Source: Candidatus Dojkabacteria bacterium
GTDB lineage: Archaea; Nanobdellota; Nanobdellia; Pacearchaeales; GW2011-AR1
NCBI GenBank assembly: GCA_017610445.1
Contig: JAFCCB010000001.1
Span: 1-48,246, forward strand
DNA length: 48,246 bases
Direction: 5' to 3'
Shown one piece after another: positions 13,977-46,013 of the stretch (its first letter is position 1; each line of letters starts with the position of its first letter). The notes under the pieces were generated by a model. The model was not told the DNA's origin and made no database searches. It saw nothing but the letters and a program-made list of their open reading frames with translations. A program made the translations under genes and the position numbers.

Positions 13977-14822
13977 TCAAAACACCCACCAAAATTTCCA
14001 CATTAAAAACAACAAACCAACAAAACCCAATAAAAACGAGGGTGTAAAAGGAATTCCATATTTAATCAAAATCTTTTTCTTGCTTTTCTTAATCATCCCA
14101 AGTTCCCTTCTAGAAACCCCCTGCCAATCTAATTTTATTTTCCTTCCTTTAATAAAAATATCTTTATACAGCCAATCTCCCTGTGTAACTTTTTCTGCAC
14201 TAACAGATTTAACCAAACAACTTTCCTCAACAGATTTTGCAAAAATAAACAGCACAGGAAATAATAAAATAACTAATCCAATTAAAATAAATCTAATCTG
14301 ACTGATAAAAAAAACAAATACCCCCCACAATAAAACAAAAACCAAACTAATCAAAAACATTTTTTCATATTTCCCCCACTGCCTTAAAAATTCTTTGGAA
14401 AAAATTTTCCAATTGACAATCACCAGAAAAAAAGAATAAATTAAAGCATAAACACTCCCTCCTGCTAAAAACATTAAAATAAAATACCCAAAAATTTTCA
14501 GATTAATCAACCAGTTAAAACTCAAAGGTAAAATTACTCCTAAAGCCATTAATAATTTAGCATCCCCCCCTGCAAACATCCTGCTATAATAAAATAAATT
14601 TCCTAAAATAAAAAATACCCCTAACCCAATCAAACCATTTAAAACAAACCAATAATTCCAACCCCAAACACTAATAACAAGCCGATAAACAAGAGCAAAT
14701 CCAATCAAACTGAAATTCCACAGATTATCAACCTCCCTCCGCTTCATATCCTGAAAAACAGCCCCTACAATCCAAACCAATCCCAAAACAATCAAAAACA
14801 AATTCTCAAAATTAATTAACAT
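13977..14822 (-). CDS. archaeal type IV prepilin/preflagellin peptidase (A24 family, PibD/FlaK-like)
   Basis: Polytopic membrane protein with the two catalytic Asp motifs DMKRREVDN (TM1 end) and FAGGDAKLL. Confidence 0.75.
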   Translation of the reverse strand: MLINFENLFLIVLGLVWIVGAVFQDMKRREVDNLWNFSLIGFALVYRLVISVWGWNYWFVLNGLIGLGVFFILGNLFYYSRMFAGGDAKLLMALGVILPLSFNWLINLKIFGYFILMFLAGGSVYALIYSFFLVIVNWKIFSKEFLRQWGKYEKMFLISLVFVLLWGVFVFFISQIRFILIGLVILLFPVLFIFAKSVEESCLVKSVSAEKVTQGDWLYKDIFIKGRKIKLDWQGVSRRELGMIKKSKKKILIKYGIPFTPSFLLGFVGLLFLMWKFWWVF

Positions 14823-14890
14823 TTTTCAACCTCATTATTAAATAACAAAAACCATTAATAAATATTCTTATCTCAATATGCTCTCAAAAA

Positions 14891-15226
14891 TTATGCAATT
14901 GCAGGCAACTCTATTTTAGAATCTTTTAATAATGGCCCAACTGCTAATTCTACATCTAATCTTATAAGATGTCTTACGAATAAATTATCAGTATTTAATT
15001 TATAAAGCTCAGACTTTCCCTGTCTTCTTGTTCTTATAACAATCTTATTTTTAATAAAATCATCAAAAAAAGAAATCAAAGAATTATAACTAACATTAGA
15101 ACCTCTTGCAATCTCCGTCATATTATAATCAAAAAGTTTATTATCAATTAAAAAATCTAAAACTCTCAATTTAGGAGTATCCCCTAAACTTTTCAAAAAT
15201 GGCGACATAGTTTGTTTTTTTTTCAT
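14891..15226 (-). CDS. winged-helix transcriptional regulator (ArsR/TrmB-like)
   Basis: PKLRVLDFLIDNKLFDYNMTEIARGSNVSYNSLISFFDDFIKNKIVIRTRRQGKSELYKLN has an HTH plus wing pattern. Confidence 0.5.
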   Translation of the reverse strand: MKKKQTMSPFLKSLGDTPKLRVLDFLIDNKLFDYNMTEIARGSNVSYNSLISFFDDFIKNKIVIRTRRQGKSELYKLNTDNLFVRHLIRLDVELAVGPLLKDSKIELPAIA

Positions 15227-15329
15227 TTTATGGTGTAATTACAATACCTGTTTATTTAAATGTTTCCATCCTAACTATTTAAACTATCAAACATAGAAAT
15301 ATTTATAAAATTCATTTTCTTAACAAAAT

Positions 15330-15584
15330 ATGGAAAAAGAACTGATAAAAGCAGAAATTATGCTAAAACTTACAAAAAAGAATAATTGGGGGGCTTGCTA
15401 TGATAGATTAGAACATTTTAAAAGATTTCCAGATTTAAAAAAAATCATAAAAGAATTAGAAAAAAAATTTTGGATTATAATTCATAAAAAACCAAATTAT
15501 ACTGCAATATCATTAAATACCAAATATAAAAGAGAAATTGCAGAATTTATTTATGAACAAATAAAGATTCACTATAAAATTTAA
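15330..15584 (+). CDS. hypothetical protein (84 aa)
   Basis: Clean ORF divergent from the wHTH gene. No motif recognised. Confidence 0.35.
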   Translation: MEKELIKAEIMLKLTKKNNWGACYDRLEHFKRFPDLKKIIKELEKKFWIIIHKKPNYTAISLNTKYKREIAEFIYEQIKIHYKI

Positions 15585-15850
15585 AAAACTTTCCTCTTAT
15601 TTCAATATCTTATAAAACAATTAGCTATCCAATCAGTTTATCAAGCCATACATCCATTAACCCAGTTCAAAAATTTGCAGATTATTAAATGACATCCTTT
15701 CCACACTAAAGTGTGAAGTTTCCTTTTTAATATCTGTTTACAATTTTTAGCTACATAAAACAGAGCTTAAGATTCTCATCTACTCAAAGTTTTGCACATT
15801 ATTGATACCATATCATAAATGATATGGACTTCTCCTGTATTTTAAATAAA

Positions 15851-15970
15851 TCATCCAGAAACCTTCTTTTTTTTCACTCTCTGACTTCCGCCTTTTTTAT
15901 ATCTATTATATCTTCTTTTAGCTCGTTTATCTGTTTTTGTTTTTCGCCTTTGAGGATTTGCATATTCCAT
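15851..15970 (-). CDS. very basic 39-aa peptide at the 3' end of the pilin cluster
   Basis: MEYANPQRRKTKTDKRAKRRYNRYKKGGSQRVKKKKVSG. Its ATG directly abuts the stop (15971-15973) of the preceding pilin-like gene. Hand-translated. Confidence 0.3.
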   Translation of the reverse strand: MEYANPQRRKTKTDKRAKRRYNRYKKGGSQRVKKKKVSG

Positions 15971-16267
15971 TTAACAAATCACCTCAGAACAATCCAGAAC
16001 GCAATTTCCCTTTAATAAATCATCCTGACAACTAACCCCTGCATCTTTTATTTCACAGCAATAATCATAAGAGTTTTCTAACTCACACTGAACTTCACAA
16101 GATTTTCTTGCCTGTGAAATCTCACTTCCTAAAATTGCTCCAATCTGAGTTTTAAAATTATCCCAGCCCATCACCAAAATAGCAATTAATCCAATTAAAA
16201 CAGCAATTCCTAAAATCATTAAAATTATTGTTGAAATCGCTAATTCCAGGCCTTTTTTATTTTTCAT
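15971..16267 (-). CDS. type IV pilin-like protein, Cys-rich (8 Cys)
   Basis: Class III signal MKNKKG|LELAISTIILMILGIAVLIGLIAILV. The C-terminal 45 aa carry 8 Cys. Confidence 0.65.
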   Translation of the reverse strand: MKNKKGLELAISTIILMILGIAVLIGLIAILVMGWDNFKTQIGAILGSEISQARKSCEVQCELENSYDYCCEIKDAGVSCQDDLLKGNCVLDCSEVIC

Positions 16268-16382
16268 TTTAATATTTTATACCCCAAAATTATATCTTGA
16301 TTAGCTTAAGCTCTGCATTTTTAAAGTTTTATTTATAGAGTTACTAATATAAAATATAAGAAAAAATAGTTTTTAAATTATT

Positions 16383-16832
16383 CTAAGGTGTAGTAGTAGT
16401 TGTTATATCTTCAGCATTGCAAACATAACTTTCTATTTTTAAATCATCAATGTAATTTATTGTTTCCCCCTCTTCAGAACATTCTGCTTTTGCACTTTTT
16501 AAATCATCATAAAATCCGCACTTAATTGCCGGACATTCTTTAATTCCATACTGAGTTTTTTTCTTAGCCAAAACATAACAAGTAGTATCTTTTAATGTTT
16601 CATCTTCTGTTTTCAACTCTCTTTTCTCAGAACAAAAACCATATGTCTGCCCCATACTGCAGGCAATATCACACTGATTAACAATTGTATCAACATTATT
16701 AGAAGAAACAATCCAGCTTTTCATTTTACTCCATCCAACAGTAAATCCCAATACAAGAATAACTAAAACAATTATTCCTAATATTACTAAAATAATTGTT
16801 GTTACAGACAATCCTTGAGCTTTTTTATTCAT
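16383..16832 (-). CDS. type IV pilin-like protein, Cys-rich (8 Cys)
   Basis: MNKKAQG|LSVTTIILVILGIIVLVILVLGF; 8 Cys in the extracellular part. Confidence 0.65.
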   Translation of the reverse strand: MNKKAQGLSVTTIILVILGIIVLVILVLGFTVGWSKMKSWIVSSNNVDTIVNQCDIACSMGQTYGFCSEKRELKTEDETLKDTTCYVLAKKKTQYGIKECPAIKCGFYDDLKSAKAECSEEGETINYIDDLKIESYVCNAEDITTTTTP

Positions 16833-16835
16833 ATT

Positions 16836-16979
16836 CTAAATCACTCCTGTTATTAATAATATTCCCAATAAAACAGAAATTGCTCCGGTTATTATTAATA
16901 ATTTATATTTTTTAAATAAAATAGGCAATAAATTTATAACTATTATTGTTATTCCAATTATTGTATAAGATTCTACCAT
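16836..16979 (-). CDS. small two-helix membrane protein (47 aa)
   Basis: MVESYTIIGITIIVINLLPILFKKYKLLIITGAISVLLGILLITGVI. Its stop lies 3 nt before the next ATG. Hand-translated. Confidence 0.35.
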   Translation of the reverse strand: MVESYTIIGITIIVINLLPILFKKYKLLIITGAISVLLGILLITGVI

Positions 16980-17102
16980 TTTTAAATTCCTTCCCTGTTT
17001 TTAGGGAATTTAAATGCAAGAAATTTCCACAAAGGAAATTTCTGCACAGAAAATTGTTTCAAACAATTTTCTTGTGCTTGAAAATCTTTGATTTTCATTG
17101 TA

Positions 17103-17270
17103 TTATAATCCCTTTTGCACAACAAGTTTAATTAACTCAAATACAAGCCCCATACTTGTTATTAAACTGCCTAAATTTATTTTTCCAAAAGTTATAATAA
17201 CACCTCCACAAATTACTATAATCCCAAATATAATATCTAATAAATTAATTTGAGCTTTTTTATTCACCAT
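17103..17270 (-). CDS. small pilin-like/membrane protein (55 aa)
   Basis: MVNKKA|QINLLDIIFGIIVICGGVIITFG... has the same NKKA leader as neighbouring pilin-like genes. Hand-translated. Confidence 0.4.
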   Translation of the reverse strand: MVNKKAQINLLDIIFGIIVICGGVIITFGKINLGSLITSMGLVFELIKLVVQKGL

Positions 17271-17307
17271 TTTTATATTTTTATATAAACAAACATCTTT
17301 TTAAATC

Positions 17308-25423: not shown

Positions 25424-27736
25424 TTATATCTTCTTTCCTTTAATCTGCTTTTTCAGCCATTTCTGCCACAAAGAAAAAACTCTGTCTCCAACAGGCAAAC
25501 CAATCTCTTCCTGGACCTGCTGAGAAAACTGATGAAACATATTATTATTCAAGGCATTAAATTTAGACTCTAAAATTTTGGGCATCTTAGTTTTTTCAGC
25601 AACATCAACAATCTCCTGTTTTATTTTAGCTCTCAATAAAATATTATCATAAACAGCATCCCAATTCCCAGCCCACCCCTTCACCCCCCCAGCAATCGCC
25701 TTAATAATTTCTGAATCTCCATTAATCAGCTCATCACTTGGCTCTAACTCATCTTTCTTAACATTGTATTTCAGCAAATCAACAAAACCTTTCTCTTCTT
25801 CAGGGTCTTTAGTCCAGTGCTTTCTAACTTCTGCTAATTGAATAACTCTTTTCATACTGCTCATTCCATCAGGCGTCTTAACAGGATTAGCAATAATAAT
25901 ACAATCAGTCGCCTTAAAAGAAGTAACAGGAACCCCTAAATCATTAACAACTCTGTCAAAAACACCATAAGGGCTTGCACCATGAATTGTTCCTGCAACA
26001 ACATTTGCTAATGCCCCAACCCTCATTGCTTCATAAAGTGCTTTTGCTTCTAAACTTCTAACCTCACCAACAATCAAGCAAGAATCCCCTAATCTCAGCG
26101 AAGTTCTAATCCCTTCATCAGCGCCTATCTCATTGCTTGTTTTTAATAGAGCACTTCTTACTTTCATTCCAAGAATATCATATTTTAGTTTTCTTAATGA
26201 ATCTATTGGAAGTTCTCTTGTATCCTCCAAGACAATTACCCTATATTTTGGCATTATCTCTAACATTAAACTGCCTAAAACTGATGTTTTTCCACTTGAC
26301 CTGGTCCCTGCCACAAGAATAGTTCTCGCACCATCAACTAAAAAACTCATTAAACCAGCAGAAAAACTATTCATCATTTTATTTTTAACAAATAAAGGCA
26401 AGGTCCATGGCTCTTCTCTATGCCTCCTGATTGCATAAGCAAGCCCATTAGGAGAAAGTGGTTGTTGAATAACTGCAATTCTTGCTTTAATCTTTCCTAA
26501 ACCTAAATCAGTATCCAAAATAGGATTTGCCTCATCTAAAGGCCGTCCAGAAATCATTCTAAATTTTGCAGCCCATGAATCAGCATCTTCTTTGCTCGGA
26601 ATAATATTTGTAGAACACTCTCCAAACTTACTATGTTTAAGATAAACAGGATTAAGTGAAATCGGAGCATTCAAAACAATATCCTGCAGATTCCTGTCTT
26701 GAAGCAAAACTTCAATCAAACCAAAACCAATTGTATGCCTTACTAAAATTGCACTTAATTTATTCAGTTCATCATAATCTAATTTAACTCCTTTGCTCTC
26801 ACTTAACTCCCTGACTAAATCTCTTGAAATATTAAAAAAAACCTGCCTTGTTTTTTCAGGGTCTGTAAATTCCTCTGCTTTCGGCTGATGCTCAATCAAA
26901 ACATTTCTTGCCAAATTTAAAAGATTCTGCTTGCCCTCATCTAAAGAATATTCAGAAGGCATTAAATGATAAATATATTTTGTATCCTCAGGTTTTTTCA
27001 AAATTGTAACAACAGACTTATCATAACCCTCTCCAATCTCATACTGTTCAATAATCTCCGCCCCCTCAGGCAGACTTGCTGCTAGTCGTGTAAAAGTAAA
27101 ATTAGGAATTATATCTGCTCTAAAAAAATGATAATAAATATCCCTATCACCAAAAGAATAATCCTTAAAAAATTTCTTAGCTTCTTTAATCAGTTTTGTG
27201 CTCTCTAAAAGAGAATAAAACTTCTCTAACATTCTAACATAACTCGCCTGGTCAAACCTAACTTCATCAGGAGTATTTCCCAAATTCACTTTCTCTGCAT
27301 CTAAAAATCTCTGCAGTTCAAAATAACAGGCAACAGGATCTCTCTTCAAAGTCATTAAAAGATAACTAATATCATTGTATCTCTGCGACAAATACTGCGA
27401 ATTAGAAATAGACAATTTTAAAGGTGAAAGAATTTTCTCCTGCTTTGTCAAAAAAACATAAAGATTTGCAATCTCCTGTAATAAAAAAACTTGAGAAAAA
27501 TCATAATTGTAATTTCTCTGCTGAACAAAAACAATCCGAGATATATTCGGAGCCCCAATTAGCAAATCAATTGTTCGGTTCATCACCTCTCTGTTTTCAG
27601 CAAGATTAGGAACAAAAGTAGCACCTAAATAATTGACATACATAACCTGATTTTCTGCTTCTCTGACTATCTCATATGCATAAAGTTGCGTCCCTGGTTT
27701 AAATAACATCTTCCCCTTTTCACCTATAACTAACAA
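25424..27736 (-). CDS. type IV pilus assembly ATPase (FlaI/PilB/VirB11, GspE superfamily) with long N-terminal extension
   Basis: Walker A VAGTRSSGKTS, Walker B/Asp box RVIVLEDTRELP, His box region GEVRSLEAKALYEAMRVG...AGTIHGASP. The ORF-track start is TTG; the first ATG is at 27709. Confidence 0.9.
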   Translation of the reverse strand: MLVIGEKGKMLFKPGTQLYAYEIVREAENQVMYVNYLGATFVPNLAENREVMNRTIDLLIGAPNISRIVFVQQRNYNYDFSQVFLLQEIANLYVFLTKQEKILSPLKLSISNSQYLSQRYNDISYLLMTLKRDPVACYFELQRFLDAEKVNLGNTPDEVRFDQASYVRMLEKFYSLLESTKLIKEAKKFFKDYSFGDRDIYYHFFRADIIPNFTFTRLAASLPEGAEIIEQYEIGEGYDKSVVTILKKPEDTKYIYHLMPSEYSLDEGKQNLLNLARNVLIEHQPKAEEFTDPEKTRQVFFNISRDLVRELSESKGVKLDYDELNKLSAILVRHTIGFGLIEVLLQDRNLQDIVLNAPISLNPVYLKHSKFGECSTNIIPSKEDADSWAAKFRMISGRPLDEANPILDTDLGLGKIKARIAVIQQPLSPNGLAYAIRRHREEPWTLPLFVKNKMMNSFSAGLMSFLVDGARTILVAGTRSSGKTSVLGSLMLEIMPKYRVIVLEDTRELPIDSLRKLKYDILGMKVRSALLKTSNEIGADEGIRTSLRLGDSCLIVGEVRSLEAKALYEAMRVGALANVVAGTIHGASPYGVFDRVVNDLGVPVTSFKATDCIIIANPVKTPDGMSSMKRVIQLAEVRKHWTKDPEEEKGFVDLLKYNVKKDELEPSDELINGDSEIIKAIAGGVKGWAGNWDAVYDNILLRAKIKQEIVDVAEKTKMPKILESKFNALNNNMFHQFSQQVQEEIGLPVGDRVFSLWQKWLKKQIKGKKI

Positions 27737-27786
27737 AACATCACCATATTAAAAGTTAATTGTGATTTAAATATTAAAAAATCAAT

Positions 27787-28119
27787 CTACATAATCCTGC
27801 TCGTAATATGAACTGTAGCTTCTTCTTGCTTATATCTTTGACGCAAACGTTCATGCCCCCCCAATAACTCGAAGTCAAAAGTTTTTATAAGTTCATGCTT
27901 CCCAAATTCTGTTGAGTAAACCTTAGAGAAAGGTTGCAGAACCTCTTGGTGATGTTGTGCTATACTTTCTGGAATTCCAATAATAATATCATCTTTCCCT
28001 AGTTCCTGTTCAAGTTTCTCTAGTGCTTTTCTTTTTACACCATCAAAGCCTTTTCTTCCTTTTCTGTTAACTACATAATATCTATATTTTTGTTTAGTTT
28101 GTTTTCCCATATTCATCAA
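27787..28119 (-). CDS. hypothetical protein (about 109 aa)
   Basis: Clean ORF upstream of the ATPase. The ORF-track start is TTG; ATG is at 28116. No motif recognised. Confidence 0.35.
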   Translation of the reverse strand: MMNMGKQTKQKYRYYVVNRKGRKGFDGVKRKALEKLEQELGKDDIIIGIPESIAQHHQEVLQPFSKVYSTEFGKHELIKTFDFELLGGHERLRQRYKQEEATVHITSRIM

Positions 28120-28521
28120 TCAAGAACTCTCTTTCCTTTTTATTGTTAGGGTTGAATAAGTTAATTGTTCTAATCTACTCTCAATCCAATTTGCTCTTTC
28201 TATATATTTTTCTGCACTATCTTTGAATTTTTTTATATAAAGTTTTACAGTTTCTGCCTTAAAAGGAATCAAATCAGTACGATGAAGAAATTTTGAATTT
28301 TGATTCACCCATACTTTTCTTTTCTTTATCTTGTCTCCTAAAAAATCAAATACATCAAAATAATAAGAATTGCCATAACAATCAGTTTTCTTCATTACTA
28401 AAGGATTTTGAATAAAAATATTTTTGGGAGGAATTCCATAATCTAAATTCCCTGCTTGTTGATAAAACCCAACTTTCAAAGGTTCTCCATTAAAATCCCT
28501 TGCTATTATTTTTTCTTCCAT
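28120..28521 (-). CDS. hypothetical protein (133 aa)
   Basis: Clean ORF whose stop abuts the next ORF. No motif recognised. Confidence 0.35.
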   Translation of the reverse strand: MEEKIIARDFNGEPLKVGFYQQAGNLDYGIPPKNIFIQNPLVMKKTDCYGNSYYFDVFDFLGDKIKKRKVWVNQNSKFLHRTDLIPFKAETVKLYIKKFKDSAEKYIERANWIESRLEQLTYSTLTIKRKESS

Positions 28522-28603
28522 CTTTACCTATCATCAGAACTCTCCTTCCCTTTTTAGGTAATTATCCCTATAATTAACCGTTTATAAACTTTATCAAACA
28601 CAC

Positions 28604-28615
28604 GGCTATGTGTAA
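28604..28615. repeat. IS terminal inverted repeat (transposase 3' side)
   Basis: GGCTATGTGTAA is the exact reverse complement of 29866-29877. Confidence 0.8.
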
Positions 28616-28618
28616 TTC

Positions 28619-29461
28619 TTAAACCATCCCTTTAGAAATTATTTTCCATTCATACTTCGCTCTATTAAGAACATTAATATTATGATTAATCCATCTTAAA
28701 GTTTCTTCATTTGTTCTAGCAGATTTTAGTTTAGAATAAACTTTATCTCCATGTAGCATCTTTTTCATTTGATTAGATGTTTCAACATTGCTTCTTTTGT
28801 GATAATGTTTATTATATTCTTCAAGGTTATCTTTTGATTCTTGATTCATCTCTTTCCAAGAAGGAATTCCGCTTTGCTTTCCGTTCCAACTCTTCTTGCA
28901 TTTGAAGTAAGGTTTAGCCCCTACTTCTAAAACCTTTTCACAATTTGCTTTAGCCCAATACATTCCATCTCCACTCCATTCATCAATCTGAAAATTCCTT
29001 GCTGTTTTATTAATATGTTCTCTGAAAATTCCTTGCTGTTTTATTAATATGTTCTCTAAAAATAATATTATCTTTACCCTTTTTATTTCTACATTAAGAG
29101 CAGTTACTATTTTGCTCTTAACACTAATTGAAGTATGAACTGTTAAATGATCTCTCTTTCTTATTCTTTTATTAATTCTCAAGCTATACCAAGTTGAGAA
29201 TAACTTAGTCCTTATTCCAGTTGAGTCTGTAGCAAAATCTTTCTCGATAATTGCTAATGGTTTAGAACTCTCTTCTATCAACAAATCAAGAACTTCTTGA
29301 AGGGAGTTGTCTCCTCTATAATTACATAATGTTTTGAAGCAGGGAATTTTAACACTTATGAGTTTTGTTTTTTTGAAGAGTTTTAATAAATTTCTGGCTC
29401 TTCTTACAGATAAGTTTGGAAATTTATGCCACACTAAAAGGCAAGTTATAATTCTTCTCAT
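28619..29461 (-). CDS. DDE transposase (IS4/IS5 family signature)
   Basis: D in FATDSTG, D in SGDGMYW, and the Y-x2-R-x3-E-x6-K signature in YHKRSNVETSNQMKK. Confidence 0.75.
   Translation of the reverse strand: MRRIITCLLVWHKFPNLSVRRARNLLKLFKKTKLISVKIPCFKTLCNYRGDNSLQEVLDLLIEESSKPLAIIEKDFATDSTGIRTKLFSTWYSLRINKRIRKRDHLTVHTSISVKSKIVTALNVEIKRVKIILFLENILIKQQGIFREHINKTARNFQIDEWSGDGMYWAKANCEKVLEVGAKPYFKCKKSWNGKQSGIPSWKEMNQESKDNLEEYNKHYHKRSNVETSNQMKKMLHGDKVYSKLKSARTNEETLRWINHNINVLNRAKYEWKIISKGMV
28990..29057. repeat. perfect 34-bp tandem duplication inside the transposase ORF
   Basis: GAAAATTCCTTGCTGTTTTATTAATATGTTCTCT occurs at 28990-29023 and again at 29024-29057. Confidence 0.95.
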
Positions 29462-29711
29462 CCTTTTAGTTTTACAAACTTTAAATTCGAGATATTTGAC
29501 AAAGTCAAGGAAGTTTAAGAACCCATTATCTTAAACTTTGTTATATGGTGCCTCATCTCTAAGATACCTCTTTTTCTTTTTCATAACTATTTATGGTGCC
29601 CATAATGGTTATGTTTTTCTATATTTGATTATACTATATAAGAACACCATAAAACTTATATAATATGGTGCCTAAGAATACATTTATAGAATAAATAGTC
29701 TTGTAAACACT

Positions 29712-29861
29712 ATGGCATTCATTAGAAAAAAGAAGATTGGAAGTAAAATCTATTATTATGTTGTTGAGAATAAGTTAATTAAAGGGAGAGTAATGCAAAA
29801 GGTCTTGTATTACATAGGGACTGCAGAAACATTACTTAAAAAATTAAAGATTAAACACTAA
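29712..29861 (+). CDS. small basic ORF (49 aa) inside the IS, opposite to the transposase
   Basis: MAFIRKKKIGSKIYYYVVENKLIKGRVMQKVLYYIGTAETLLKKLKIKH. It resembles the N-terminal DNA-binding module seen at the start of some archaeal transposases (from memory). Hand-translated. Confidence 0.35.
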   Translation: MAFIRKKKIGSKIYYYVVENKLIKGRVMQKVLYYIGTAETLLKKLKIKH

Positions 29862-29865
29862 TCTT

Positions 29866-29877
29866 TTACACATAGCC
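29866..29877. repeat. IS terminal inverted repeat (transposase 5' side)
   Basis: TTACACATAGCC is the exact reverse complement of 28604-28615. Confidence 0.8.
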
Positions 29878-29974
29878 TAAACACTCTAATAAATAAAATA
29901 ATATCCTTATTAAAATTATGTATGCAACGCAACAATTTTAAACCCTTCTTCCTTAATATTTTAAAAGAGATAAA

Positions 29975-30358
29975 ATGGACATTCAACCCCAGCCCCAAGA
30001 TTCCATAAACGCGCTTTTATCTGAATTCAGCACTCGATTAAATGAAGTGGAAGAAAAACAAAGATTAATCAAAGACCGGCTTTTATTAATTGGAGAAAAT
30101 TTAATTTCAACTAAAGAAGATTTTCTAAAACAGGATTTTGAAACAAAAAAACATTTAAAAAAAATAGATTTTGAAACCCACTCTCTAAAACAACTCTTAG
30201 CAAGAATAATTAATGAACTGCCAAACTTTGCAAAAAAACCAGAATTAGAAATCCTGCAAAGACAGATGAAAATGTTCCAGCCATTAGAATTTGCAAGAAT
30301 CAAAGATGTTCAGGATATTATAAAAAAAGAAATCAAAAAGCAAAATTTAAAACCATAA
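29975..30358 (+). CDS. coiled-coil protein (127 aa)
   Basis: Heptad-rich sequence (LNEVEEKQRLIKDRLLLIGENL...). No enzymatic motif. Confidence 0.45.
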   Translation: MDIQPQPQDSINALLSEFSTRLNEVEEKQRLIKDRLLLIGENLISTKEDFLKQDFETKKHLKKIDFETHSLKQLLARIINELPNFAKKPELEILQRQMKMFQPLEFARIKDVQDIIKKEIKKQNLKP

Positions 30359-30374
30359 AAAACTAAATAAAAAG

Positions 30375-31160
30375 ATGGCAATTTTAGAAAAAATAATGCA
30401 GTTAAAACAGCAAGGACAAACAGAATCTCAAATTGCAGATTCATTAAAACAAGAGGGGGTTTCACCTAAAGAAATTAATGAAGCATTATCCCAGTCAAAA
30501 ATTAAATCTACATTAAATGAACAAAACACAATAATGCAGCCGCCACAAATGCCTCCTGTAACTTCTGAAATTCAGCAACCTCCAATTCAAGAAGCACAAA
30601 TGCAACCAAGCATAATGCAGCAGCAACCTGCACAAGCTTTTCCACAGCAACCTCAACAAACACAGGAAATTCCCCCTTCTTTCCAGCCCTCTCAAATGCC
30701 TGTCCAAGAAATTCAGGAAACACAAGAACCACCCCAATATCAAGAATATCAGCCACAAGAAACCGCAGATATTGAAACAATAAATGAAATCGCAGAACAG
30801 ATTGTGGATGAAAAAACAAATGGACTAAAAAAACAAATCTCTTCTTTCACAAAATTTAAACAAGAACTAACATTAGAAATTGAAAAAATAAACCAGAGAT
30901 TATCAAAAACAGAAGATGCATTAAATCAACTGCAGACAGCAATCATAGGAAAAGTTGGAGAATATGGAAAAGACATTAAAAACATAGCAGAAGAAATGCA
31001 CACAACCCAAGATTCTTTTTCTAAAATTCTTAATCCTTTAACCGACAACATACGAGAACTTCAAAAAATAACAGGGACCCAAAAAAAACCTTCAAGACCA
31101 AAGCCAAAAACAGAAAAATCTAAAAAACAAAAACCAAATTTTGAAGATTATCTAAGATAA
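30375..31160 (+). CDS. protein with small N-terminal helical domain, Q/P-rich linker and C-terminal coiled coil
   Basis: MAILEKIMQLKQQGQTESQIADSLKQEGVSPKEINEALSQ, then about 90 aa of Q/P low complexity, then a coiled coil (KQELTLEIEKINQRLSKTEDALNQLQ) and a basic tail. Confidence 0.5.
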   Translation: MAILEKIMQLKQQGQTESQIADSLKQEGVSPKEINEALSQSKIKSTLNEQNTIMQPPQMPPVTSEIQQPPIQEAQMQPSIMQQQPAQAFPQQPQQTQEIPPSFQPSQMPVQEIQETQEPPQYQEYQPQETADIETINEIAEQIVDEKTNGLKKQISSFTKFKQELTLEIEKINQRLSKTEDALNQLQTAIIGKVGEYGKDIKNIAEEMHTTQDSFSKILNPLTDNIRELQKITGTQKKPSRPKPKTEKSKKQKPNFEDYLR

Positions 31161-42646: not shown

Positions 42647-43321
42647 TTATTCTATTTTTCTAATATCAATCCAGCATCTATACTCTCCTTCACTTTCTAT
42701 TTTATATTTAATTTTAATATCTTTTTTAAATTCAGGCATTTCAAGCACAGCACTTTCTGCTTCTCCTCCTTCAAAATCAATTCTAAATCTAAACTTCTCG
42801 CTTAATCTCTTCAGCTCAAAAAGCTTTTTCTCGTCGATAACAACCCCTAACCATTCTTTTCCCAAACCTTCACAAGCAATCTTAGTCAAAATAACTTTAA
42901 ACCCCAAACCCAACAACTTCTTCCAAACATCCTCACTTTTATAATTCCATAAAGGAGCATAAAACTTTAAATTTAAATCATCACAAATCTTTTTTATTCT
43001 TTTCCCCTGATATGAACTTGCAATCCCTCCAATAACAATAACCTCAATCTCATCTTTGATTTGTTCAATTAATTTTTTCAAATCCCCTAATTCTCTGCCT
43101 TCTTCTCCTTTACTCCCCATAACAACCAATTCTAAATTTAACATCTCTGCCTGCTTACCCAACAATCTTAAATCAGGTTTATGAAACATAAAACTATCAA
43201 AATTCTCAGGAATAACAGAAAGCAAATATCTAACATCATAATTATTTTCCAAAACCAGATGTAAAGCTAAGCATGAATCTTTCCCGCCTGAAAATAAAAC
43301 TGCTGCCCTTTGTTTTTCCAT
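42647..43321 (-). CDS. ATP pyrophosphatase of the MJ0570/Dph6 (diphthine-ammonia ligase-like) family
   Basis: PP-loop AVLFSGGKDSCLAL and an alpha/beta layout typical of the ATP_bind_4 family. Confidence 0.65.
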   Translation of the reverse strand: MEKQRAAVLFSGGKDSCLALHLVLENNYDVRYLLSVIPENFDSFMFHKPDLRLLGKQAEMLNLELVVMGSKGEEGRELGDLKKLIEQIKDEIEVIVIGGIASSYQGKRIKKICDDLNLKFYAPLWNYKSEDVWKKLLGLGFKVILTKIACEGLGKEWLGVVIDEKKLFELKRLSEKFRFRIDFEGGEAESAVLEMPEFKKDIKIKYKIESEGEYRCWIDIRKIE

Positions 43322-43388: not shown

Positions 43389-46013
43389 TCACATTGTCCT
43401 TTCAAAAGTATCAATAATGTCTCCTGTATCATTATAAACAATTCCATTCATTACATTATTTGTTATATTAATAATAACATAATGAAAATTATGTCCTATA
43501 CAATCTCCAAGAATACTTGTACTTGTCTCACAAGCTCTTAATGGTGCACCTGCCCCCCCAGAAATAATATTAATCATTTCTCCATCATGTGTTGAATTAT
43601 AATTATAAACATGTTCATGTGAAAAAAGACTTGCTGTAACCTCCTTATTATACATCAAATCATCAATCATTGCTGAACGTGTAGGATTAAAACCCATCAA
43701 ACAATCATCTCTTGTTGTTGCTACTAAAGGCCTATGGCCAATAACAAATTTATGAGTATAACCTTCTTGATGTAAAGTTTCATCAAACCAAGTAAATTGG
43801 TTCCCAGTTATATCTCCTTCATTTCCTGCTTCTTCTGTATTCACAAATATAAATAATGAATTCCCATATCCCCAAGAATATGATACTTCTTGCCATTCAT
43901 TATTTTTCCCCTCAAAAGCATTAGTTGCCCCACCCCCATTTAAAGGAGCTATCCAATAATCTTGATAAGCTTGGTGCCCAAAATTCCAGCCTCCATATAA
44001 TTCATGGTTCCCTATTGCAGATAAAAGAGGAATACTTAAATCTCCTCTTAAACCAGAAGTTAAATCATGAAAATTCTTCCAACCTGTTCTATAATCTGAC
44101 TCTTGTGAACATCCTTCTCCCTGAATATCATCTCCTCCAATTATAACAAAATCAGCTCCTTTAGAAGCTATATCATTAATCATGCTCTCAAAAGCCAAAT
44201 CCCCACCATCACAACCAACCTCTGCACAAATACCATCACAACCTCTTGAATCCCCTAAAAAAGCAAAACTAAAACTTGTTTTTGAATTATCTAATGTTTT
44301 AAATGAAGACTTAAATGAATCATTTTTATAAATTTCTCCATCAGAAATATTCTGCACAATAACCTGATAATAATAAACAGTTCCAGGATTAAGGCTGTTT
44401 ATAGTTAATTCATGTATTTTACTGAAAGATGAATCAGAAACAGAATTCCCATAACCAATTGTCTCTCCATAATTTATTGTAATATTTGTTAACATATTTG
44501 TTTCTGTTCTTATTTTTTCTGTTGTTTCATTCCAAGCCATAACATAAGGCTCAAGATAATAACTAAGAGTTGGCTCTGGTATTACTCCTCCATAAACATT
44601 TTCATATATTTCTTTAATCTCTTCCTCACTTAAACTTCTATTCCAAATTGCAGCCTCATCAATCATGCCATCAAAAAATCTATCATTAGATGCTCTAGCT
44701 CCAATTCTTAAATCATAACTTCCAGTGTCAATAGGCCCAGAAACATCAGGCAGACCAGAATTGTCAAGTTCTCCATTAATATAAATTTTCCACTCATTAT
44801 CTGAATAATTATAAGTCATAGTTAAAAAATACCATTTACCTGATTCAATAGAATTAGAGCTCTGATACGCAGTAGGACTACCTCCTATTTTTAATCCTAA
44901 TTCTGGGTTTAGATCATTTGTTAATGCCATACGATAACCATAAGCATCATCTGTGCCTTTGTTTATAATCCTTTGAGTTTTTCCTGACTTATCTTCTGGT
45001 TTTATCCAAGCAGATAATGTAATCTCCTCTGATATTTGAAGTTCTGGACTATCCTGAACAATAAAACTCTGTCCATTATCATACTCAAAATCAAAAGCCC
45101 CATTAACCTTCCCAGCTTCTACAAAACTTGGACAATTTACAGAACAAGTTGCACTATTCCCATTTCCAGAAAAATCATAAGCAAGATTATCTGTTTCACC
45201 ATAATCAGAATCATTATTAAATTTATAATAAGCAACTAACCCCTGAGAAGCAATATCTAAAATACCTGCCTGACAATCTTCAAAATCATAATAATCAATT
45301 GATCCATCACAATCATTATCAACACCATCATCACAAATCTCATTTGCTCCTGGATTAATGTTTATATTACTATCATTACAATCAACAGAACCACAGCTTT
45401 CTCCAGTAGCATTAAATCCATCTCCATCATTATCAACACACTCAAAAGTTCCTTCCCCACTTCCCTCATAAACATCTGTATTAACTTTATTAGGCAAACT
45501 TGTATCTTTTCTCAAATCTTTTTTAAACTTATCTTTAACAGCACTTGTAATAATCTTCCCAGAACTTATCTGAATCTCAAAAGCAATGCTAACAAAAACA
45601 ATATCACTAAAATTAAAACTAGGATCCCCTATTTGATTTCGAACACCAACTTGAGTTATACTATAAACCTTAGTTTCTAATTCATCTGGAATCCCGCCAG
45701 AAAAAGATGGATAATTATAAATATAATTTTTTTCTCTAGAATCTGTAAATATAAATTTTAATGCAGAAATATTTCCTTTTCCTGCGTCTCTATGAACAGA
45801 AACATAAGCTGTCTGATTATCTTCTGGAATATAAACTGATTTTATATCTAAATCAACTTTAAACTGCTCAATAGAAATTTCTTCAGAACTTTTTTGAACA
45901 ACCCCCTTGAAAACATTCCAAACAATTACAATTATTACAAAAACAATCAATATTAATAAAATAGCTGTTATAACCTGTGCTTGTGCATATTTACTCTTTC
46001 CTCTCTTTTTCAT
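43389..46013 (-). CDS. large surface protein: pilin-type N-terminus + DNDCDG metal-binding repeats + LamG-like domain + FN3/PAP-N + metallophosphoesterase
   Basis: MKKRGKSKYAQAQVITAILLILIVFVIIVIVW; CVDNDGDGF...CDDGVDNDCDG; LamG_3-like ...FFDGMIDEAAIWNRSLSEEEI; phosphoesterase motifs GDSRG, GGDD, GNHE, GHRP, HEH. Confidence 0.7.
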   Translation of the reverse strand: MKKRGKSKYAQAQVITAILLILIVFVIIVIVWNVFKGVVQKSSEEISIEQFKVDLDIKSVYIPEDNQTAYVSVHRDAGKGNISALKFIFTDSREKNYIYNYPSFSGGIPDELETKVYSITQVGVRNQIGDPSFNFSDIVFVSIAFEIQISSGKIITSAVKDKFKKDLRKDTSLPNKVNTDVYEGSGEGTFECVDNDGDGFNATGESCGSVDCNDSNININPGANEICDDGVDNDCDGSIDYYDFEDCQAGILDIASQGLVAYYKFNNDSDYGETDNLAYDFSGNGNSATCSVNCPSFVEAGKVNGAFDFEYDNGQSFIVQDSPELQISEEITLSAWIKPEDKSGKTQRIINKGTDDAYGYRMALTNDLNPELGLKIGGSPTAYQSSNSIESGKWYFLTMTYNYSDNEWKIYINGELDNSGLPDVSGPIDTGSYDLRIGARASNDRFFDGMIDEAAIWNRSLSEEEIKEIYENVYGGVIPEPTLSYYLEPYVMAWNETTEKIRTETNMLTNITINYGETIGYGNSVSDSSFSKIHELTINSLNPGTVYYYQVIVQNISDGEIYKNDSFKSSFKTLDNSKTSFSFAFLGDSRGCDGICAEVGCDGGDLAFESMINDIASKGADFVIIGGDDIQGEGCSQESDYRTGWKNFHDLTSGLRGDLSIPLLSAIGNHELYGGWNFGHQAYQDYWIAPLNGGGATNAFEGKNNEWQEVSYSWGYGNSLFIFVNTEEAGNEGDITGNQFTWFDETLHQEGYTHKFVIGHRPLVATTRDDCLMGFNPTRSAMIDDLMYNKEVTASLFSHEHVYNYNSTHDGEMINIISGGAGAPLRACETSTSILGDCIGHNFHYVIINITNNVMNGIVYNDTGDIIDTFERTM

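What the first reader, a model, noticed from the sequence alone, without database searches (positions are those of the whole stretch)
13977..28521. Complete type IV pilus-like machinery with an unusually large and diverse set of about 13 pilin-like genes
All on the minus strand, the locus holds four kinds of component.
- An A24 prepilin peptidase (Asp motifs DMKRREVDN and GGDAKLL).
- A 770-aa FlaI/PilB-type ATPase (GTRSSGKTS, VLEDTREL).
- A 715-aa FlaJ/TadC-like platform protein.
- An uninterrupted head-to-tail run of small ORFs from 21802 down to 15971, with stop/start overlaps at 21122-21125, 18063-18070 and 17699-17706.

At least nine of these ORFs begin with a short basic leader ending N-K-K-[A/G] (or KKG/KRG), followed by a ~20-residue hydrophobic helix. 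That is a class III (type IV pilin) signal. Five of them are below the ORF-track size cut-off and had to be translated by hand. No archaellin, FlaH, FlaF/G or FlaC/D/E genes are present, so this is not an archaellum.

The mature parts show no obvious similarity to one another. Several are Cys-rich, and four soluble proteins without recognisable motifs are embedded in the ATPase operon. In a small-genome (DPANN-like) archaeon, this many pilin-like genes beside a single secretion core is a strong candidate for a host-attachment or uptake apparatus whose composition has not been characterised.
Basis: partly seen in the sequence, partly recalled or inferred. Interest (0 to 1): 0.75.

Follow-up and report, generated by a model that had tools for sequence, protein, structure and literature searches.

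The report
DPANN archaeal type IV pilus locus
This is a real and complete type IV pilus-type assembly locus of a Pacearchaeota (DPANN) archaeon with eleven pilin-like genes, but the same locus is present in hundreds of related genomes and its kind has already been reported, so it is a well-documented example rather than a discovery.

Summary
On the minus strand lie:
- an A24 prepilin peptidase (13977-14822);
- a block of 13 small ORFs (15971-21802), 11 of which have a class III-type N-terminus ([KR][GA] followed by a hydrophobic helix);
- a 715-aa platform protein;
- a FlaI/GspE-type ATPase.

The platform fails Pfam, NCBIfam and PDB sequence searches. It is recognisable as a divergent T2SSF protein only through distant relatives and a fold match.

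The pilin set is not peculiar to this genome. Eight to nine pilin-like families recur in the same order in 36 related Pacearchaeota/Woesearchaeota loci, with a median of 7 class III ORFs per block. The platform occurs in at least 563 species genomes.

The four "embedded soluble proteins" are not conserved. They are variable cargo, and two of them lie in an insertion that also carries an IS5-like gene. The conserved soluble partners are two divergently transcribed coiled-coil proteins (29975-31160) outside the stated coordinates.

No archaellum genes are present.

Hamm et al. 2024 and Makarova et al. 2019 already describe such DPANN pilus loci, so this is a new member of a known kind. A role in host attachment is plausible but untested.

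By-product: a 66-nt two-hairpin interspersed repeat is read through in frame inside two pilin leader regions.

The parts
13977..14822 (-). A24 aspartyl prepilin (class III signal) peptidase, 281 aa. About 8 predicted TM segments plus a soluble insert.
   Evidence: Pfam PF01478 32.2 bits, above cut-off. FlaK_Arch 39.7 bits, far below its equivalog cut-off. FlaK 3s0x E=1.6e-6, aligned over both Asp motifs. D25 and GGD87 invariant in 40 orthologues. TM count.
15971..16267 (-). p98: Cys-rich pilin-like protein, MKNKKG|LELAISTIIL. Paralogue of 16383-16832.
   Evidence: Class III heuristic. Same HMM family as p149a, with 90 shared hits, present in 36/36 loci. Orthologue leaders vary in length but keep [KR][GA].
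16383..16832 (-). p149a: Cys-rich pilin-like protein, MNKKA|QGLSVTTIIL, with Q at +1.
   Evidence: Related DPANN loci carry QxSLE-type versions directly after the platform gene.
16836..16979 (-). 47-aa two-TM ORF with no class III motif. Not conserved; doubtful component.
   Evidence: No hit in any related locus. TM prediction.
17103..17270 (-). p55: short pilin-like ORF, MVNKKA|QINLLDIIF. Same family as 17308-17706.
   Evidence: 41 shared HMM hits with p132L.
17308..17706 (-). p132L: pilin-like protein (…DKKA|DIAITILVLG) whose leader is lengthened by an in-frame copy of a 66-nt repeat.
   Evidence: Orthologues have ordinary leaders such as MKNKKA|DIAITILV. Family present in 35/36 loci.
17620..17685 (-). 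Copy 1 of a 66-nt two-hairpin interspersed repeat, translated as ANFLRKTSLNKEITFPRKVKSK.
17699..18070 (-). p123: pilin-like protein, MFRQKKA|AIGATMTWVVA.
   Evidence: Present in 32/36 loci.
18063..18629 (-). p188: pilin-like protein, MIKNKKA|GERVLSIYLF. One copy per locus.
   Evidence: Present in 36/36 loci.
18796..19179 (-). p127: pilin-sized protein, MMKNKKA|NILHEQIIFIILNVVF, with Glu at +5. One copy per locus. A few orthologues lack the [KR][GA] motif.
   Evidence: No PDB sequence match with a family profile.
19291..20214 (-). p307: largest pilin-like protein, MKTKKG|ELTSKQLITIIIL. Long N-terminal helix, Cys-rich alpha/beta domain and a disordered Gly-rich loop.
   Evidence: Present in 36/36 loci. 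Conserved Cys columns. AF2 model pLDDT 81.5, pTM 0.78, helix 10-53. No Foldseek match in PDB, best probability 0.10.
20339..20461 (-). p40: 40-aa ORF, MKKINKKA|VMENLMKIILW. Some orthologues lack the motif. Either a pilin or a small membrane protein.
   Evidence: Present in 29/36 loci.
20571..21125 (-). p184L: pilin-like protein (…DKRG|FLLGEYTLKIIIAVL), with its leader lengthened by the second copy of the 66-nt repeat.
   Evidence: Present in 36/36 loci.
21054..21119 (-). Copy 2 of the 66-nt two-hairpin repeat.
21122..21556 (-). p144: N-terminal hydrophobic helix beginning MELTINNLIK, resembling a mature pilin N-terminus with no leader. Could be a pilin-like subunit or a bitopic assembly protein.
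   Evidence: Present in 30/36 loci.
21638..21802 (-). p54: short pilin-like protein without a globular domain, MDKKSKNKKG|VAIESLVWWVIAI…KNLFRFR. It is the first gene after the platform gene. Similar in size to Flp and EpdE pilins.
   Evidence: Found directly after the platform gene in 19/36 loci by a strict regular expression.
22264..24411 (-). Platform protein, 715 aa, about 9 TM segments. A divergent protein with two T2SSF-like halves (PilC/GspF/TadC/FlaJ class).
   Evidence: No direct Pfam, NCBIfam or PDB hit. 16 of 40 distant full-length relatives hit Pfam T2SSF, best E=3.2e-10. A diverse family profile hits only EpsF, E=0.41. AF2 model pLDDT 73.5. Foldseek matches: EpsF cytoplasmic domain probability 0.92, TM 0.72; PilC model 3jc8 probability 0.60. 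Weak in-register N-half versus C-half hhalign, E=0.002, probability 14%.
24464..25422 (-). Two lineage-specific soluble ORFs (110 and 137 aa) at the ATPase-platform junction. Variable cargo, not core components.
   Evidence: 0-2 orthologues in related loci. The junction varies from 15 nt to 5.3 kb across loci.
25424..27736 (-). FlaI/GspE/CpaF-family secretion ATPase. 770 aa from the TTG start, probably 761 aa from the ATG at 27709. It has an N-terminal region of about 220 aa with no detectable relatives.
   Evidence: N-terminal 310 aa has no PDB sequence match. 761-aa gene calls.
27787..29461 (-). Insertion specific to this lineage: two orphan ORFs (110 and 133 aa) and a degenerate IS5-family transposase gene carrying a perfect 34-nt tandem duplication.
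   Evidence: IS5 model 70 bits against a cut-off of 140. No orthologues of the orphans. In other loci the coiled-coil genes abut the ATPase gene. Duplication at 28987-29054.
29975..30358 (+). cc127: conserved cytoplasmic coiled-coil protein. In related genomes it is divergent from the ATPase gene and directly upstream of it.
   Evidence: Orthologues in 50 related loci, in most listed loci 70-300 nt from the ATPase start and on the opposite strand. No family hit. Fits the CCP genes of PMC11291902.
30375..31160 (+). cc261: second conserved protein of the pair. Small N-terminal helical domain, Q/P-rich linker and C-terminal coiled coil.
   Evidence: Orthologues in 50 related loci next to cc127. 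Only sub-threshold coiled-coil hits.
43389..46013 (-). Possible additional substrate outside the locus. 874-aa protein with a class III-like N-terminus (MKKRG|KSKYAQAQVITAILLIL), a MopE motif, a ConA-like lectin domain and a calcineurin-like phosphoesterase domain.
   Evidence: the only other class III-like ORF in the window. Pfam Laminin_G_3 4.9e-32, Metallophos 1.1e-9.

Best explanation
The locus encodes the type IV filament (pilus) assembly machine that is standard equipment of Pacearchaeota/Woesearchaeota and is shared, in more divergent form, with other cluster-2 DPANN archaea.

Shown here:
- an ATPase of the FlaI/GspE/CpaF family with intact catalytic motifs;
- a polytopic platform protein that is a very divergent T2SSF-type protein;
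- an A24 aspartyl peptidase with both catalytic Asp residues;
- eleven proteins whose N-termini have the class III architecture;
- all of these conserved in order across dozens of genomes, together with two divergently transcribed coiled-coil proteins.

Inferred mechanism:
1. The prepilins insert into the membrane.
2. The peptidase removes the short basic leader after [KR][GA] on the cytoplasmic side.
3. The hexameric ATPase docks on the cytoplasmic domains of the platform and uses ATP hydrolysis to lift processed subunits out of the membrane into a helical filament held together by their hydrophobic N-terminal helices.
4. The bulk subunit is probably either the short p54, which has no globular domain (Flp/EpdE-like in size), or the duplicated Cys-rich p149a/p98 pair.
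5. The single-copy, universally present p184L, p307, p127 and p188 would form an initiation or tip complex of minor pilins that exposes disulfide-stabilised domains.
6. The coiled-coil pair would be a cytoplasmic scaffold or regulator.

The likely use is cell-surface or host-cell attachment by an organism that depends on other cells. That role is not shown.
For: - Core enzymes.
- Platform.
- Class III N-termini: 11 in the block against 1 elsewhere in the window.
- Among orthologues the leader length varies from 4 to about 40 residues, while [KR][GA] and the residues after it are conserved. This is what a cleaved leader predicts.
- Gene order ATPase - platform - p54 - p184L - p307 - p127 - p188 - ... 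- p149a/p98 - peptidase is kept in 36 loci. p184L, p307, p127 and p188 are each present in 36/36.
- The platform family is present in at least 563 species genomes, all labelled Pacearchaeota, Woesearchaeota or Nanoarchaeota, or unclassified archaeon/bacterium, in the 80 shown.
- p307 is predicted with a 44-residue N-terminal helix followed by a globular domain.
- Chromosomal housekeeping context.
- Literature: conserved CpaF/TadC/CCP loci in cluster-2 DPANN including Pacearchaeota, with proteomic detection in Ca. Nanohaloarchaeum antarcticus (PMC11291902). DPANN pilus islands with unrecognisable pilins (PMC6393860).
Against: - None of the 13 small ORFs hits any curated pilin or class III model in Pfam at E<=1-10. 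The signal call rests on my own FlaFind-type heuristic, not on FlaFind itself.
- Some orthologues of p127, p40 and all of p144 lack the [KR][GA] motif. These may therefore be bitopic assembly proteins rather than filament subunits.
- The p307 globular domain has no structural relative among solved pilins.
- The platform-T2SSF link is transitive and fold-based, with weak direct statistics (E=0.41; hhalign probability 14%).
- No filament, expression or processing data exist for this organism.
- Which protein is the major subunit is a guess.
Confidence: 0.8

Rival explanations
1. The machine builds a short pseudopilus that acts as a piston for secretion or for DNA or nutrient uptake (T2SS-like or Com-like), not a long adhesive pilus. 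The many 'minor pilin' families would form the pseudopilus tip.
For: - The gene order ATPase - platform - pilins - peptidase resembles gsp and comG operons (established knowledge).
- There are many conserved single-copy pilin-like families.
- No second (retraction) ATPase is present in the window.
- A class III-type lectin/phosphoesterase is encoded 15 kb away.
- SPIII-bearing enzymes and binding proteins are proposed to functionalise archaeal filament machines (preprint 10.64898/2026.04.22.720090).
Against: - No ComEC, ComEA or nuclease partner was found in the locus or in any ORF scanned.
- A short pilin without a globular domain, such as p54, is typical of long Flp/Epd-type pili.
- The sequence data cannot separate a pseudopilus from a pilus.
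Confidence: 0.15
2. Only a few of the small ORFs are true filament subunits. Several (p127, p144, p40, possibly p188 and p184L) are uncleaved bitopic membrane proteins that form the assembly or alignment sub-complex, as PilN/PilO or GspL/GspM do in bacteria.
For: - Orthologues of p127 and p40 exist without any [KR][GA] motif, and p144 never has a leader.
- These families are single-copy and universal, as expected for machine parts.
- There are no pilin model hits.
Against: - Most orthologues keep [KR][GA] at a fixed distance from the helix, while the leader before it varies freely.
- p127 has Glu at +5 from the predicted cleavage site, a pilin hallmark.
- No sequence similarity to solved structures, known PilN/O or GspL/M included, was detected (p127 family profile against PDB sequences). 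No fold search was run for p127.
Confidence: 0.3
3. The locus is an archaellum (motility) operon.
For: The NCBIfam FlaI model is the best-scoring ATPase model, at 118.9 bits. Coiled-coil proteins sit next to the ATPase gene.
Against: - The FlaI score is far below the model's cut-off of 550, and the TadA model scores almost the same (112.9 bits).
- PDB similarity to afGspE and CpaF exceeds that to FlaI.
- No Arch_flagellin, FlaH, FlaF/G or FlaC/D/E hit was found in any ORF of the window.
- Related loci lack them too.
Confidence: 0.02

Closest known systems
Conserved type IV pilus / coiled-coil-protein (CCP) loci of cluster-2 DPANN archaea (Hamm et al. 2024, Nat Commun, PMC11291902)
   Same: A CpaF-like ATPase and a TadC-like platform encoded together with one or two coiled-coil proteins. 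Reported for Pacearchaeota, Woesearchaeota, Aenigmarchaeota, Nanohaloarchaeota and others. The window has the ATPase, the platform and two conserved coiled-coil genes, and distant platform relatives come from Aenigmarchaeota- and Nanohaloarchaeota-labelled MAGs.
   Different: Identity with their CCP families could not be checked, because no sequences were available. The main text of that paper does not describe the 8-9 conserved pilin-like families or the in-locus peptidase. In this genome an insertion separates the CCP genes from the ATPase gene.
DPANN 'dark-matter' pilus islands (Makarova, Wolf & Koonin 2019, PMC6393860, Fig. 2A) and the archaeal T4P census (Makarova, Koonin & Albers 2016, PMC4858521)
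   Same: An ATPase and TadC flanked by many small signal-peptide proteins that match no known pilin family and are interpreted as diverse pilins.
   Different: Here the 'diverse' proteins are shown to be stable orthologous families kept in order across the clade. They are not genome-specific novelties.
Epd pilus of Methanococcus maripaludis / archaeal clade 1 (System 1)
   Same: - A large gene cluster with many minor pilins.
- A short major pilin without a globular domain.
- A dedicated long-form peptidase (EppA) encoded in the locus.
- Q at +1 in some substrates.
Sources: PMC4858521 and preprint 10.64898/2026.04.22.720090.
   Different: Clade 1 has two TadC genes; here there is one 715-aa protein. 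No sequence-level match of p54 to Flp or Epd models. The clade of the ATPase was not determined.
Bacterial Tad/Flp pilus, and the T2SS and Com pseudopilus systems
   Same: The same four core functions are present. CpaF is the second-best PDB hit for the ATPase, and the EpsF cytoplasmic domain is the best fold match for the platform. The operon logic is also shared: ATPase, platform, major pilin, minor pilins, peptidase.
   Different: No secretin, TadZ, TadB/TadC split, GspL/M or PilM/N/O homologues. The leader motif is the archaeal [KR][GA] type. The pilins are unrelated in sequence.
Type IV pili of Saccharibacteria (CPR episymbionts; PMC9894109, PMC11623550)
   Same: A functional analogy. These are ultrasmall host-dependent cells in which type IV pili mediate host binding.
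   Different: A bacterial system that is not homologous at the pilin level. The analogy is not evidence for function here.

Membership tests
Type IV filament (T4P/TFF) superfamily machinery | PilB/FlaI/GspE/VirB11-family hexameric ATPase with Walker A, Asp box, Walker B and His box | tested here: met
   Pfam T2SSE E=2.4e-12. afGspE 5.8e-30. All four motifs invariant in 49 orthologues.
Type IV filament (T4P/TFF) superfamily machinery | Polytopic platform protein with T2SSF domain(s) | tested here: met
   Direct model searches fail. However, 16 of 40 full-length distant relatives hit Pfam T2SSF at up to 3.2e-10. The only PDB profile hit is EpsF. Foldseek matches the EpsF cytoplasmic domain with probability 0.92 and TM 0.72. 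Met by transitive and fold evidence only.
Type IV filament (T4P/TFF) superfamily machinery | A24 aspartyl prepilin peptidase with two catalytic Asp residues (the second in GxGD) | tested here: met
Type IV filament (T4P/TFF) superfamily machinery | Substrates with a class III signal: short charged leader, G/A at -1, then a hydrophobic helix of about 20 residues | tested here: met
   Own FlaFind-type heuristic gives 11 ORFs in the block and 1 elsewhere. The motif is conserved while leader length varies among orthologues. Caveats: there are no hits to Pfam pilin or class III models, and FlaFind and PilFind themselves were not available.
Type IV filament (T4P/TFF) superfamily machinery | Leader cleavage and assembly of an extracellular filament | not testable with these tools
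   Needs proteomics, EM or cryo-ET.
Archaellum | Archaellins (FlaA/FlaB, Pfam Arch_flagellin) and FlaF/FlaG | tested here: not met
   No hit in any small ORF at E<=1-10 or elsewhere in the window.
Archaellum | FlaH (KaiC-like ATP-binding protein) and FlaC/D/E or FlaX | tested here: not met
   No such Pfam or NCBIfam hits. The two coiled-coil proteins match no family.
Epd / clade 1 (System 1) archaeal pilus | Two separate TadC-like platform genes | tested here: not met
   A single 715-aa platform gene is present here and in related loci.
Epd / clade 1 (System 1) archaeal pilus | Long-form (9-TM) EppA-type peptidase encoded in the locus | tested here: inconclusive
   The peptidase is in the locus, is 281 aa long and has about 8 hydropathy peaks plus a soluble insert. 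The only models matched are generic A24 and FlaK. No EppA reference was available.
Epd / clade 1 (System 1) archaeal pilus | Short major pilin lacking a globular domain; QxSxE-type (DUF361) N-termini | tested here: inconclusive
   p54 (44-aa mature form) is conserved next to the platform gene. Q at +1 occurs in p149a and p55. Clear QxSLE motifs appear only in distant relatives, with sub-threshold PF04021 hits, E=0.029.
Bacterial Tad/Flp pilus | Flp pilin (Pfam Flp_Fap), TadE/TadF pseudopilins, TadB+TadC, TadZ, secretin RcpA | tested here: not met
   No Pfam hits to any of these. CpaF similarity (3e-19) is weaker than similarity to archaeal GspE.
Cluster-2 DPANN T4P/CCP locus (Hamm et al. 2024) | CpaF-like ATPase and TadC-like platform with one or two adjacent coiled-coil proteins, in Pacearchaeota and related lineages | tested here: met
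   ATPase and platform as above. cc127 and cc261 are conserved next to the ATPase gene in 50 loci. Taxon labels. Description.
Cluster-2 DPANN T4P/CCP locus (Hamm et al. 2024) | Match to the authors' CCP profile HMMs ('nucleoporin-like' coiled coil) | not testable with these tools
   The profiles and sequences are not held. A supplement search found nothing.

The most novel reading that the evidence does not exclude
The Pacearchaeota/Woesearchaeota locus may be a distinct, still unclassified subtype of archaeal type IV filament. Its features would be:
- a platform so divergent that standard models miss it;
- an ATPase with a private ~220-aa N-terminal domain;
- a cytoplasmic coiled-coil pair;
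- a fixed set of 8-9 pilin-like families, including a Cys-rich protein (p307) whose confidently predicted fold has no relative among solved structures.

Together these would build a composite host-contact organelle specific to DPANN symbionts.
Probability: 0.3. Interest if true: 0.6.

Novelty: new member of a known kind. Interest (0 to 1): 0.35.

Why it matters
No Pacearchaeota or Woesearchaeota have been cultured, and how they hold on to other cells is unknown. This locus is the obvious candidate apparatus.

The useful output is practical rather than conceptual:
- a defined and conserved parts list: ATPase, platform, peptidase, two coiled-coil proteins and 8-9 pilin-like families in a fixed order;
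- all of these are annotated 'hypothetical' in public records;
- the list can seed profile models for genome annotation and targets for metaproteomics, cryo-ET and heterologous cleavage assays.

The work also shows that standard HMM libraries miss the platform and every pilin of this clade. Surveys based on those libraries will therefore under-count such systems.

Tried and rejected
1. Direct family assignment of the platform by Pfam, NCBIfam, and PDB phmmer or profile searches gave nothing. It was resolved only through distant representatives and fold comparison.
2. Pfam scans of all small ORFs for pilin, class III, Flp, TadE or archaellin models gave nothing.
3. A profile of the p127 family against PDB returned only chance ribosomal hits.
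4. Foldseek of the p307 model against PDB returned no meaningful match.
5. The ATPase N-terminal 310 aa against PDB returned nothing.
6. The idea that the shared peptide 'ANFLRKTSLNKEITF.RKVKSK' is a functional leader module was rejected. The same 66-nt DNA is mostly intergenic elsewhere, is 92-96% identical across genomes whose proteins are only 73-81% identical, and sits in different genes.
7. Rfam has no family for that element.
8. The four soluble ORFs as machine components: rejected for lack of conservation.
9. Terminal inverted repeats around the IS5-like insertion were not found.
10. A first iterative HMM run timed out and was repeated with tighter settings. The p54 HMM drifted into other pilin families, so a strict regular expression was used instead.
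11. A supplement search of Hamm et al. for locus details returned nothing.
12. Archaellum and bacterial Tad membership were both rejected; see the membership tests.

Full report
**What is in the sequence.**
The window is AT-rich (26-34% GC). It carries archaeal housekeeping genes:
- ribosomal protein S15, eIF2-alpha, an intein-containing RadA, an RPA-like OB-fold protein and EF-1-beta;
- a Hef-type helicase and an ERCC4 nuclease;
- diphthamide synthase and methylpurine glycosylase.

**Core enzymes.**
- The 281-aa protein at 13977-14822 passes the Pfam Peptidase_A24 threshold (32.2 bits against 26.5).
- It aligns to the FlaK crystal structure 3s0x so that QD25 and GGD87 fall on the two catalytic aspartates. 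Both are invariant in 40 orthologues.
- It has about eight hydropathy peaks and a soluble insert. It is therefore a long-form enzyme, but it matches only generic A24 and FlaK models.
- The ATPase at 25424-27736 hits Pfam T2SSE. Its PDB hits are Archaeoglobus GspE 2oap at 5.8e-30, CpaF at 3e-19 and FlaI at 1.5e-14.
- Walker A (GTRSSGKTS), Asp box (VLEDTREL), Walker B (LIVGEVRS) and His box (GTIHGAS) are invariant in 49 orthologues.
- Gene calls in public data start at the ATG, which gives 761 aa.
- The first ~220 residues have no detectable relative.

**The platform protein needed more work.**
The 715-aa protein has no hit in Pfam, NCBIfam or PDB sequences, not even with a profile of 24 close homologues.
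- It is nevertheless extremely well conserved. There are more than 3,500 relatives, the top 120 at 64-100% identity, and almost all carry the label 'hypothetical protein'.
- A search of 1.84 billion cluster representatives gave 1,050 clusters at E<=1e-3.
- Of 40 diverse full-length members (23-56% identity), 16 hit Pfam T2SSF, best E=3.2e-10.
- The profile of that diverse set has a single kind of PDB hit, the cytoplasmic domain of EpsF/GspF (E=0.41).
- An AlphaFold model (pLDDT 73.5, pTM 0.69) matches the EpsF cytoplasmic domain (probability 0.92, TM 0.72, rmsd 3.1 Å). Its top-ranked hit is the PilC chain of the type IVa pilus machine model 3jc8 (probability 0.60).
- The N- and C-terminal halves align weakly but in register (hhalign E=0.002, probability 14%). 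This fits the duplicated T2SSF architecture.

I accept it as a divergent platform protein. The evidence is transitive and structural, not direct.

**The pilin-like block.**
A FlaFind-type heuristic was applied: [KR][GA] within 35 residues of a start codon, followed by a strongly hydrophobic 15-mer with at most one charge. It finds 11 ORFs between 15971 and 21802 and exactly one elsewhere in the window.
- Nine have short leaders ending KKG, KKA or similar.
- Two (17308-17706 and 20571-21125) have long leaders.
- 21122-21556 starts directly with a mature-pilin-like MELTINNLIK…
- 16836-16979 is a two-TM ORF with no motif.

None of the 13 hits any Pfam pilin, class III, Flp, TadE or archaellin model.

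The stronger argument comes from comparison. Among orthologues from related genomes the leader before [KR][GA] varies freely from 4 to about 40 residues, while the motif and the following residues are kept. Examples are KKG|ELT.KQ, KKA|NILTEN, KKG|FLLAEETLK and K[KR]G|QGLS.

**Synteny and distribution.**
A scan of one genome per species found at least 563 genomes encoding the platform. All 80 loci retrieved are labelled Pacearchaeota, Woesearchaeota or Nanoarchaeota, or are unclassified. The following figures come from the 36 of them that hold the ATPase, the platform and the peptidase.
- The order is conserved: ATPase - platform - p54 - (p144) - p184L - (p40) - p307 - p127 - p188 - (p123) - (p132L) - p149a/p98 - peptidase. 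In about a third of loci the pilin block is inverted relative to the ATPase-platform pair.
- Iterated HMMs find p184L, p307, p127 and p188 in 36/36 loci at about one copy each.
- The p149a/p98 family is in 35-36/36, the p132L/p55 family in 35/36, p123 in 32/36, p144 in 30/36 and p40 in 29/36.
- A short p54-type protein without a globular domain sits directly after the platform gene in 19/36 loci by a strict pattern.
- Related loci have a median of 7 class III-like ORFs in the block (range 2-10). That is 13 times the density of the flanks.

So the 'large and diverse' set is a fixed ensemble of the whole clade, and the window is at the top of the normal range.

More distant platform relatives (24-30% identity) come from MAGs labelled Aenigmarchaeota or Nanohaloarchaeota. 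They also sit next to a 761-aa ATPase and a run of small ORFs. Some of those ORFs have canonical KG|QxSLE N-termini, with sub-threshold hits to Pfam Class_IIIsignal.

**What is not part of the machine, and what was missed.**
- The four soluble ORFs have 0-2 orthologues in related loci.
- The ATPase-platform junction ranges from 15 nt to 5.3 kb and is filled with unrelated genes in different genomes.
- Two coiled-coil genes on the plus strand, 29975-30358 and 30375-31160, have orthologues in 50 related loci. In most of them they are divergent from the ATPase gene and 70-300 nt from its start.
- In the window they are pushed ~2.2 kb away by an insertion. It holds the two upstream 'soluble' ORFs and a degenerate IS5-family gene.
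- The conserved locus therefore runs from 13977 to 31160.

**Structure of a representative pilin-like protein.**
- p307 was modelled with 50 homologues (pLDDT 81.5, pTM 0.78).
- It has an N-terminal helix spanning residues 10-53, a compact alpha/beta domain carrying the conserved cysteines, and a disordered Gly-rich loop that many orthologues lack.
- Foldseek finds no relative in the PDB (best probability 0.10).
- The architecture is pilin-like, but the globular fold is unassigned.

**Comparison with what is known.**
- Hamm et al. 2024 (PMC11291902) report two conserved type IV pilus loci (CpaF, TadC) with adjacent coiled-coil proteins across cluster-2 DPANN. Pacearchaeota and Woesearchaeota are named explicitly, and there is proteomic evidence in a cultured nanohaloarchaeon.
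- Makarova et al. 2019 (PMC6393860) show DPANN islands in which FlaI and TadC are surrounded by unrecognisable signal-peptide proteins interpreted as pilins.
- The locus shares traits with the Epd/clade 1 system: many minor pilins, a short major pilin and an in-locus long peptidase. It lacks that system's two TadC genes.
- It is not an archaellum and not a bacterial Tad system (see the membership tests).

**Mechanism and rivals.**
The best-supported reading is a type IV filament assembly machine working by the canonical route. Assembly, processing and function are all inferred. Three things cannot be settled from sequence:
- whether the product is a long adhesive pilus or a short pseudopilus;
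- which protein is the major subunit;
- whether p127, p144 and p40 are subunits or bitopic assembly factors.

**By-product.**
The two long leaders are caused by a 66-nt element (17620-17685 and 21054-21119; the two copies are 98.5% identical).
- It recurs at 92-96% nucleotide identity in related genomes, in different pilin genes.
- A metagenome scan found it in 22 further stretches, mostly intergenic and often just upstream of start codons.
- It folds into two hairpins (z = -2.8). The first hairpin keeps its pairing with different sequences in about 22 of 25 copies. There is no Rfam match.
- It looks like a REP/MITE-like or 5'-UTR element. Read-through is presumably tolerated because the leader is cleaved off.

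**Verdict.**
This is a new member of a known kind, of modest interest (0.35). The main value is a curated parts list for a clade-wide, unannotated apparatus.

Noticed in passing
window 17620-17685 and 21054-21119 (minus strand); also L003:11910-11977, L004:5096-5268, L005:14996-15062, L083-L104: A 66-nt two-hairpin interspersed repeat of Pacearchaeota genomes. It is more conserved in DNA (92-98%) than the genes around it, and it is mostly intergenic just upstream of genes. Here it is read through in frame as part of two pilin leaders. Hairpin 1 shows compensatory variation. There is no Rfam family.
   Followed up: partly
window 43389-46013 (minus strand): An 874-aa protein with a class III-like N-terminus (MKKRG|KSKYAQAQVITAILLIL), a MopE metal-binding motif, a ConA-like lectin domain and a calcineurin-like phosphoesterase domain. 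It may be a surface enzyme or adhesin processed by the same peptidase. It lies next to a diphthamide-synthase-family gene (42647-43321), a family noted near clade 1 pilus loci in PMC4858521.
   Followed up: partly
window 29975-31160 (plus strand): Two conserved coiled-coil proteins (127 and 261 aa; the second has a Q/P-rich linker). In 50 related loci they sit divergently next to the ATPase gene. They are probably the 'CCP' genes of Hamm et al. 2024.
   Followed up: partly
window 27737-29974: A ~2.2-kb lineage-specific insertion between the ATPase gene and the coiled-coil genes. It carries two orphan ORFs and a degenerate IS5-family transposase gene with a perfect 34-nt tandem duplication (28987-29054). 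No terminal inverted repeats were found.
   Followed up: partly
window 24412-25423, and the same junction in L002-L081: The ATPase-platform junction is a hotspot for unrelated inserted genes. The gap ranges from 15 nt to 5.3 kb across 49 loci, and includes ORFs of up to 1,147 aa.
   Followed up: partly
window about 19620-19690, compared with L082:9320-9330: A second assembly of the same organism from another sample (otherwise identical over the ~1-kb stretch aligned) has a 70-nt frameshifting deletion inside p307. This is either a population variant or an assembly difference.
   Followed up: partly
window 6150-10169 (minus strand): A 1,339-aa RadA/Rad51 gene interrupted by intein(s) with LAGLIDADG homing-endonuclease domains.
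   Followed up: no
window 14891-15226 (minus strand): A 111-aa weakly ArsR-like winged-helix protein between the pilin block and the peptidase gene. It is not conserved in related loci (1 of 36).
   Followed up: partly
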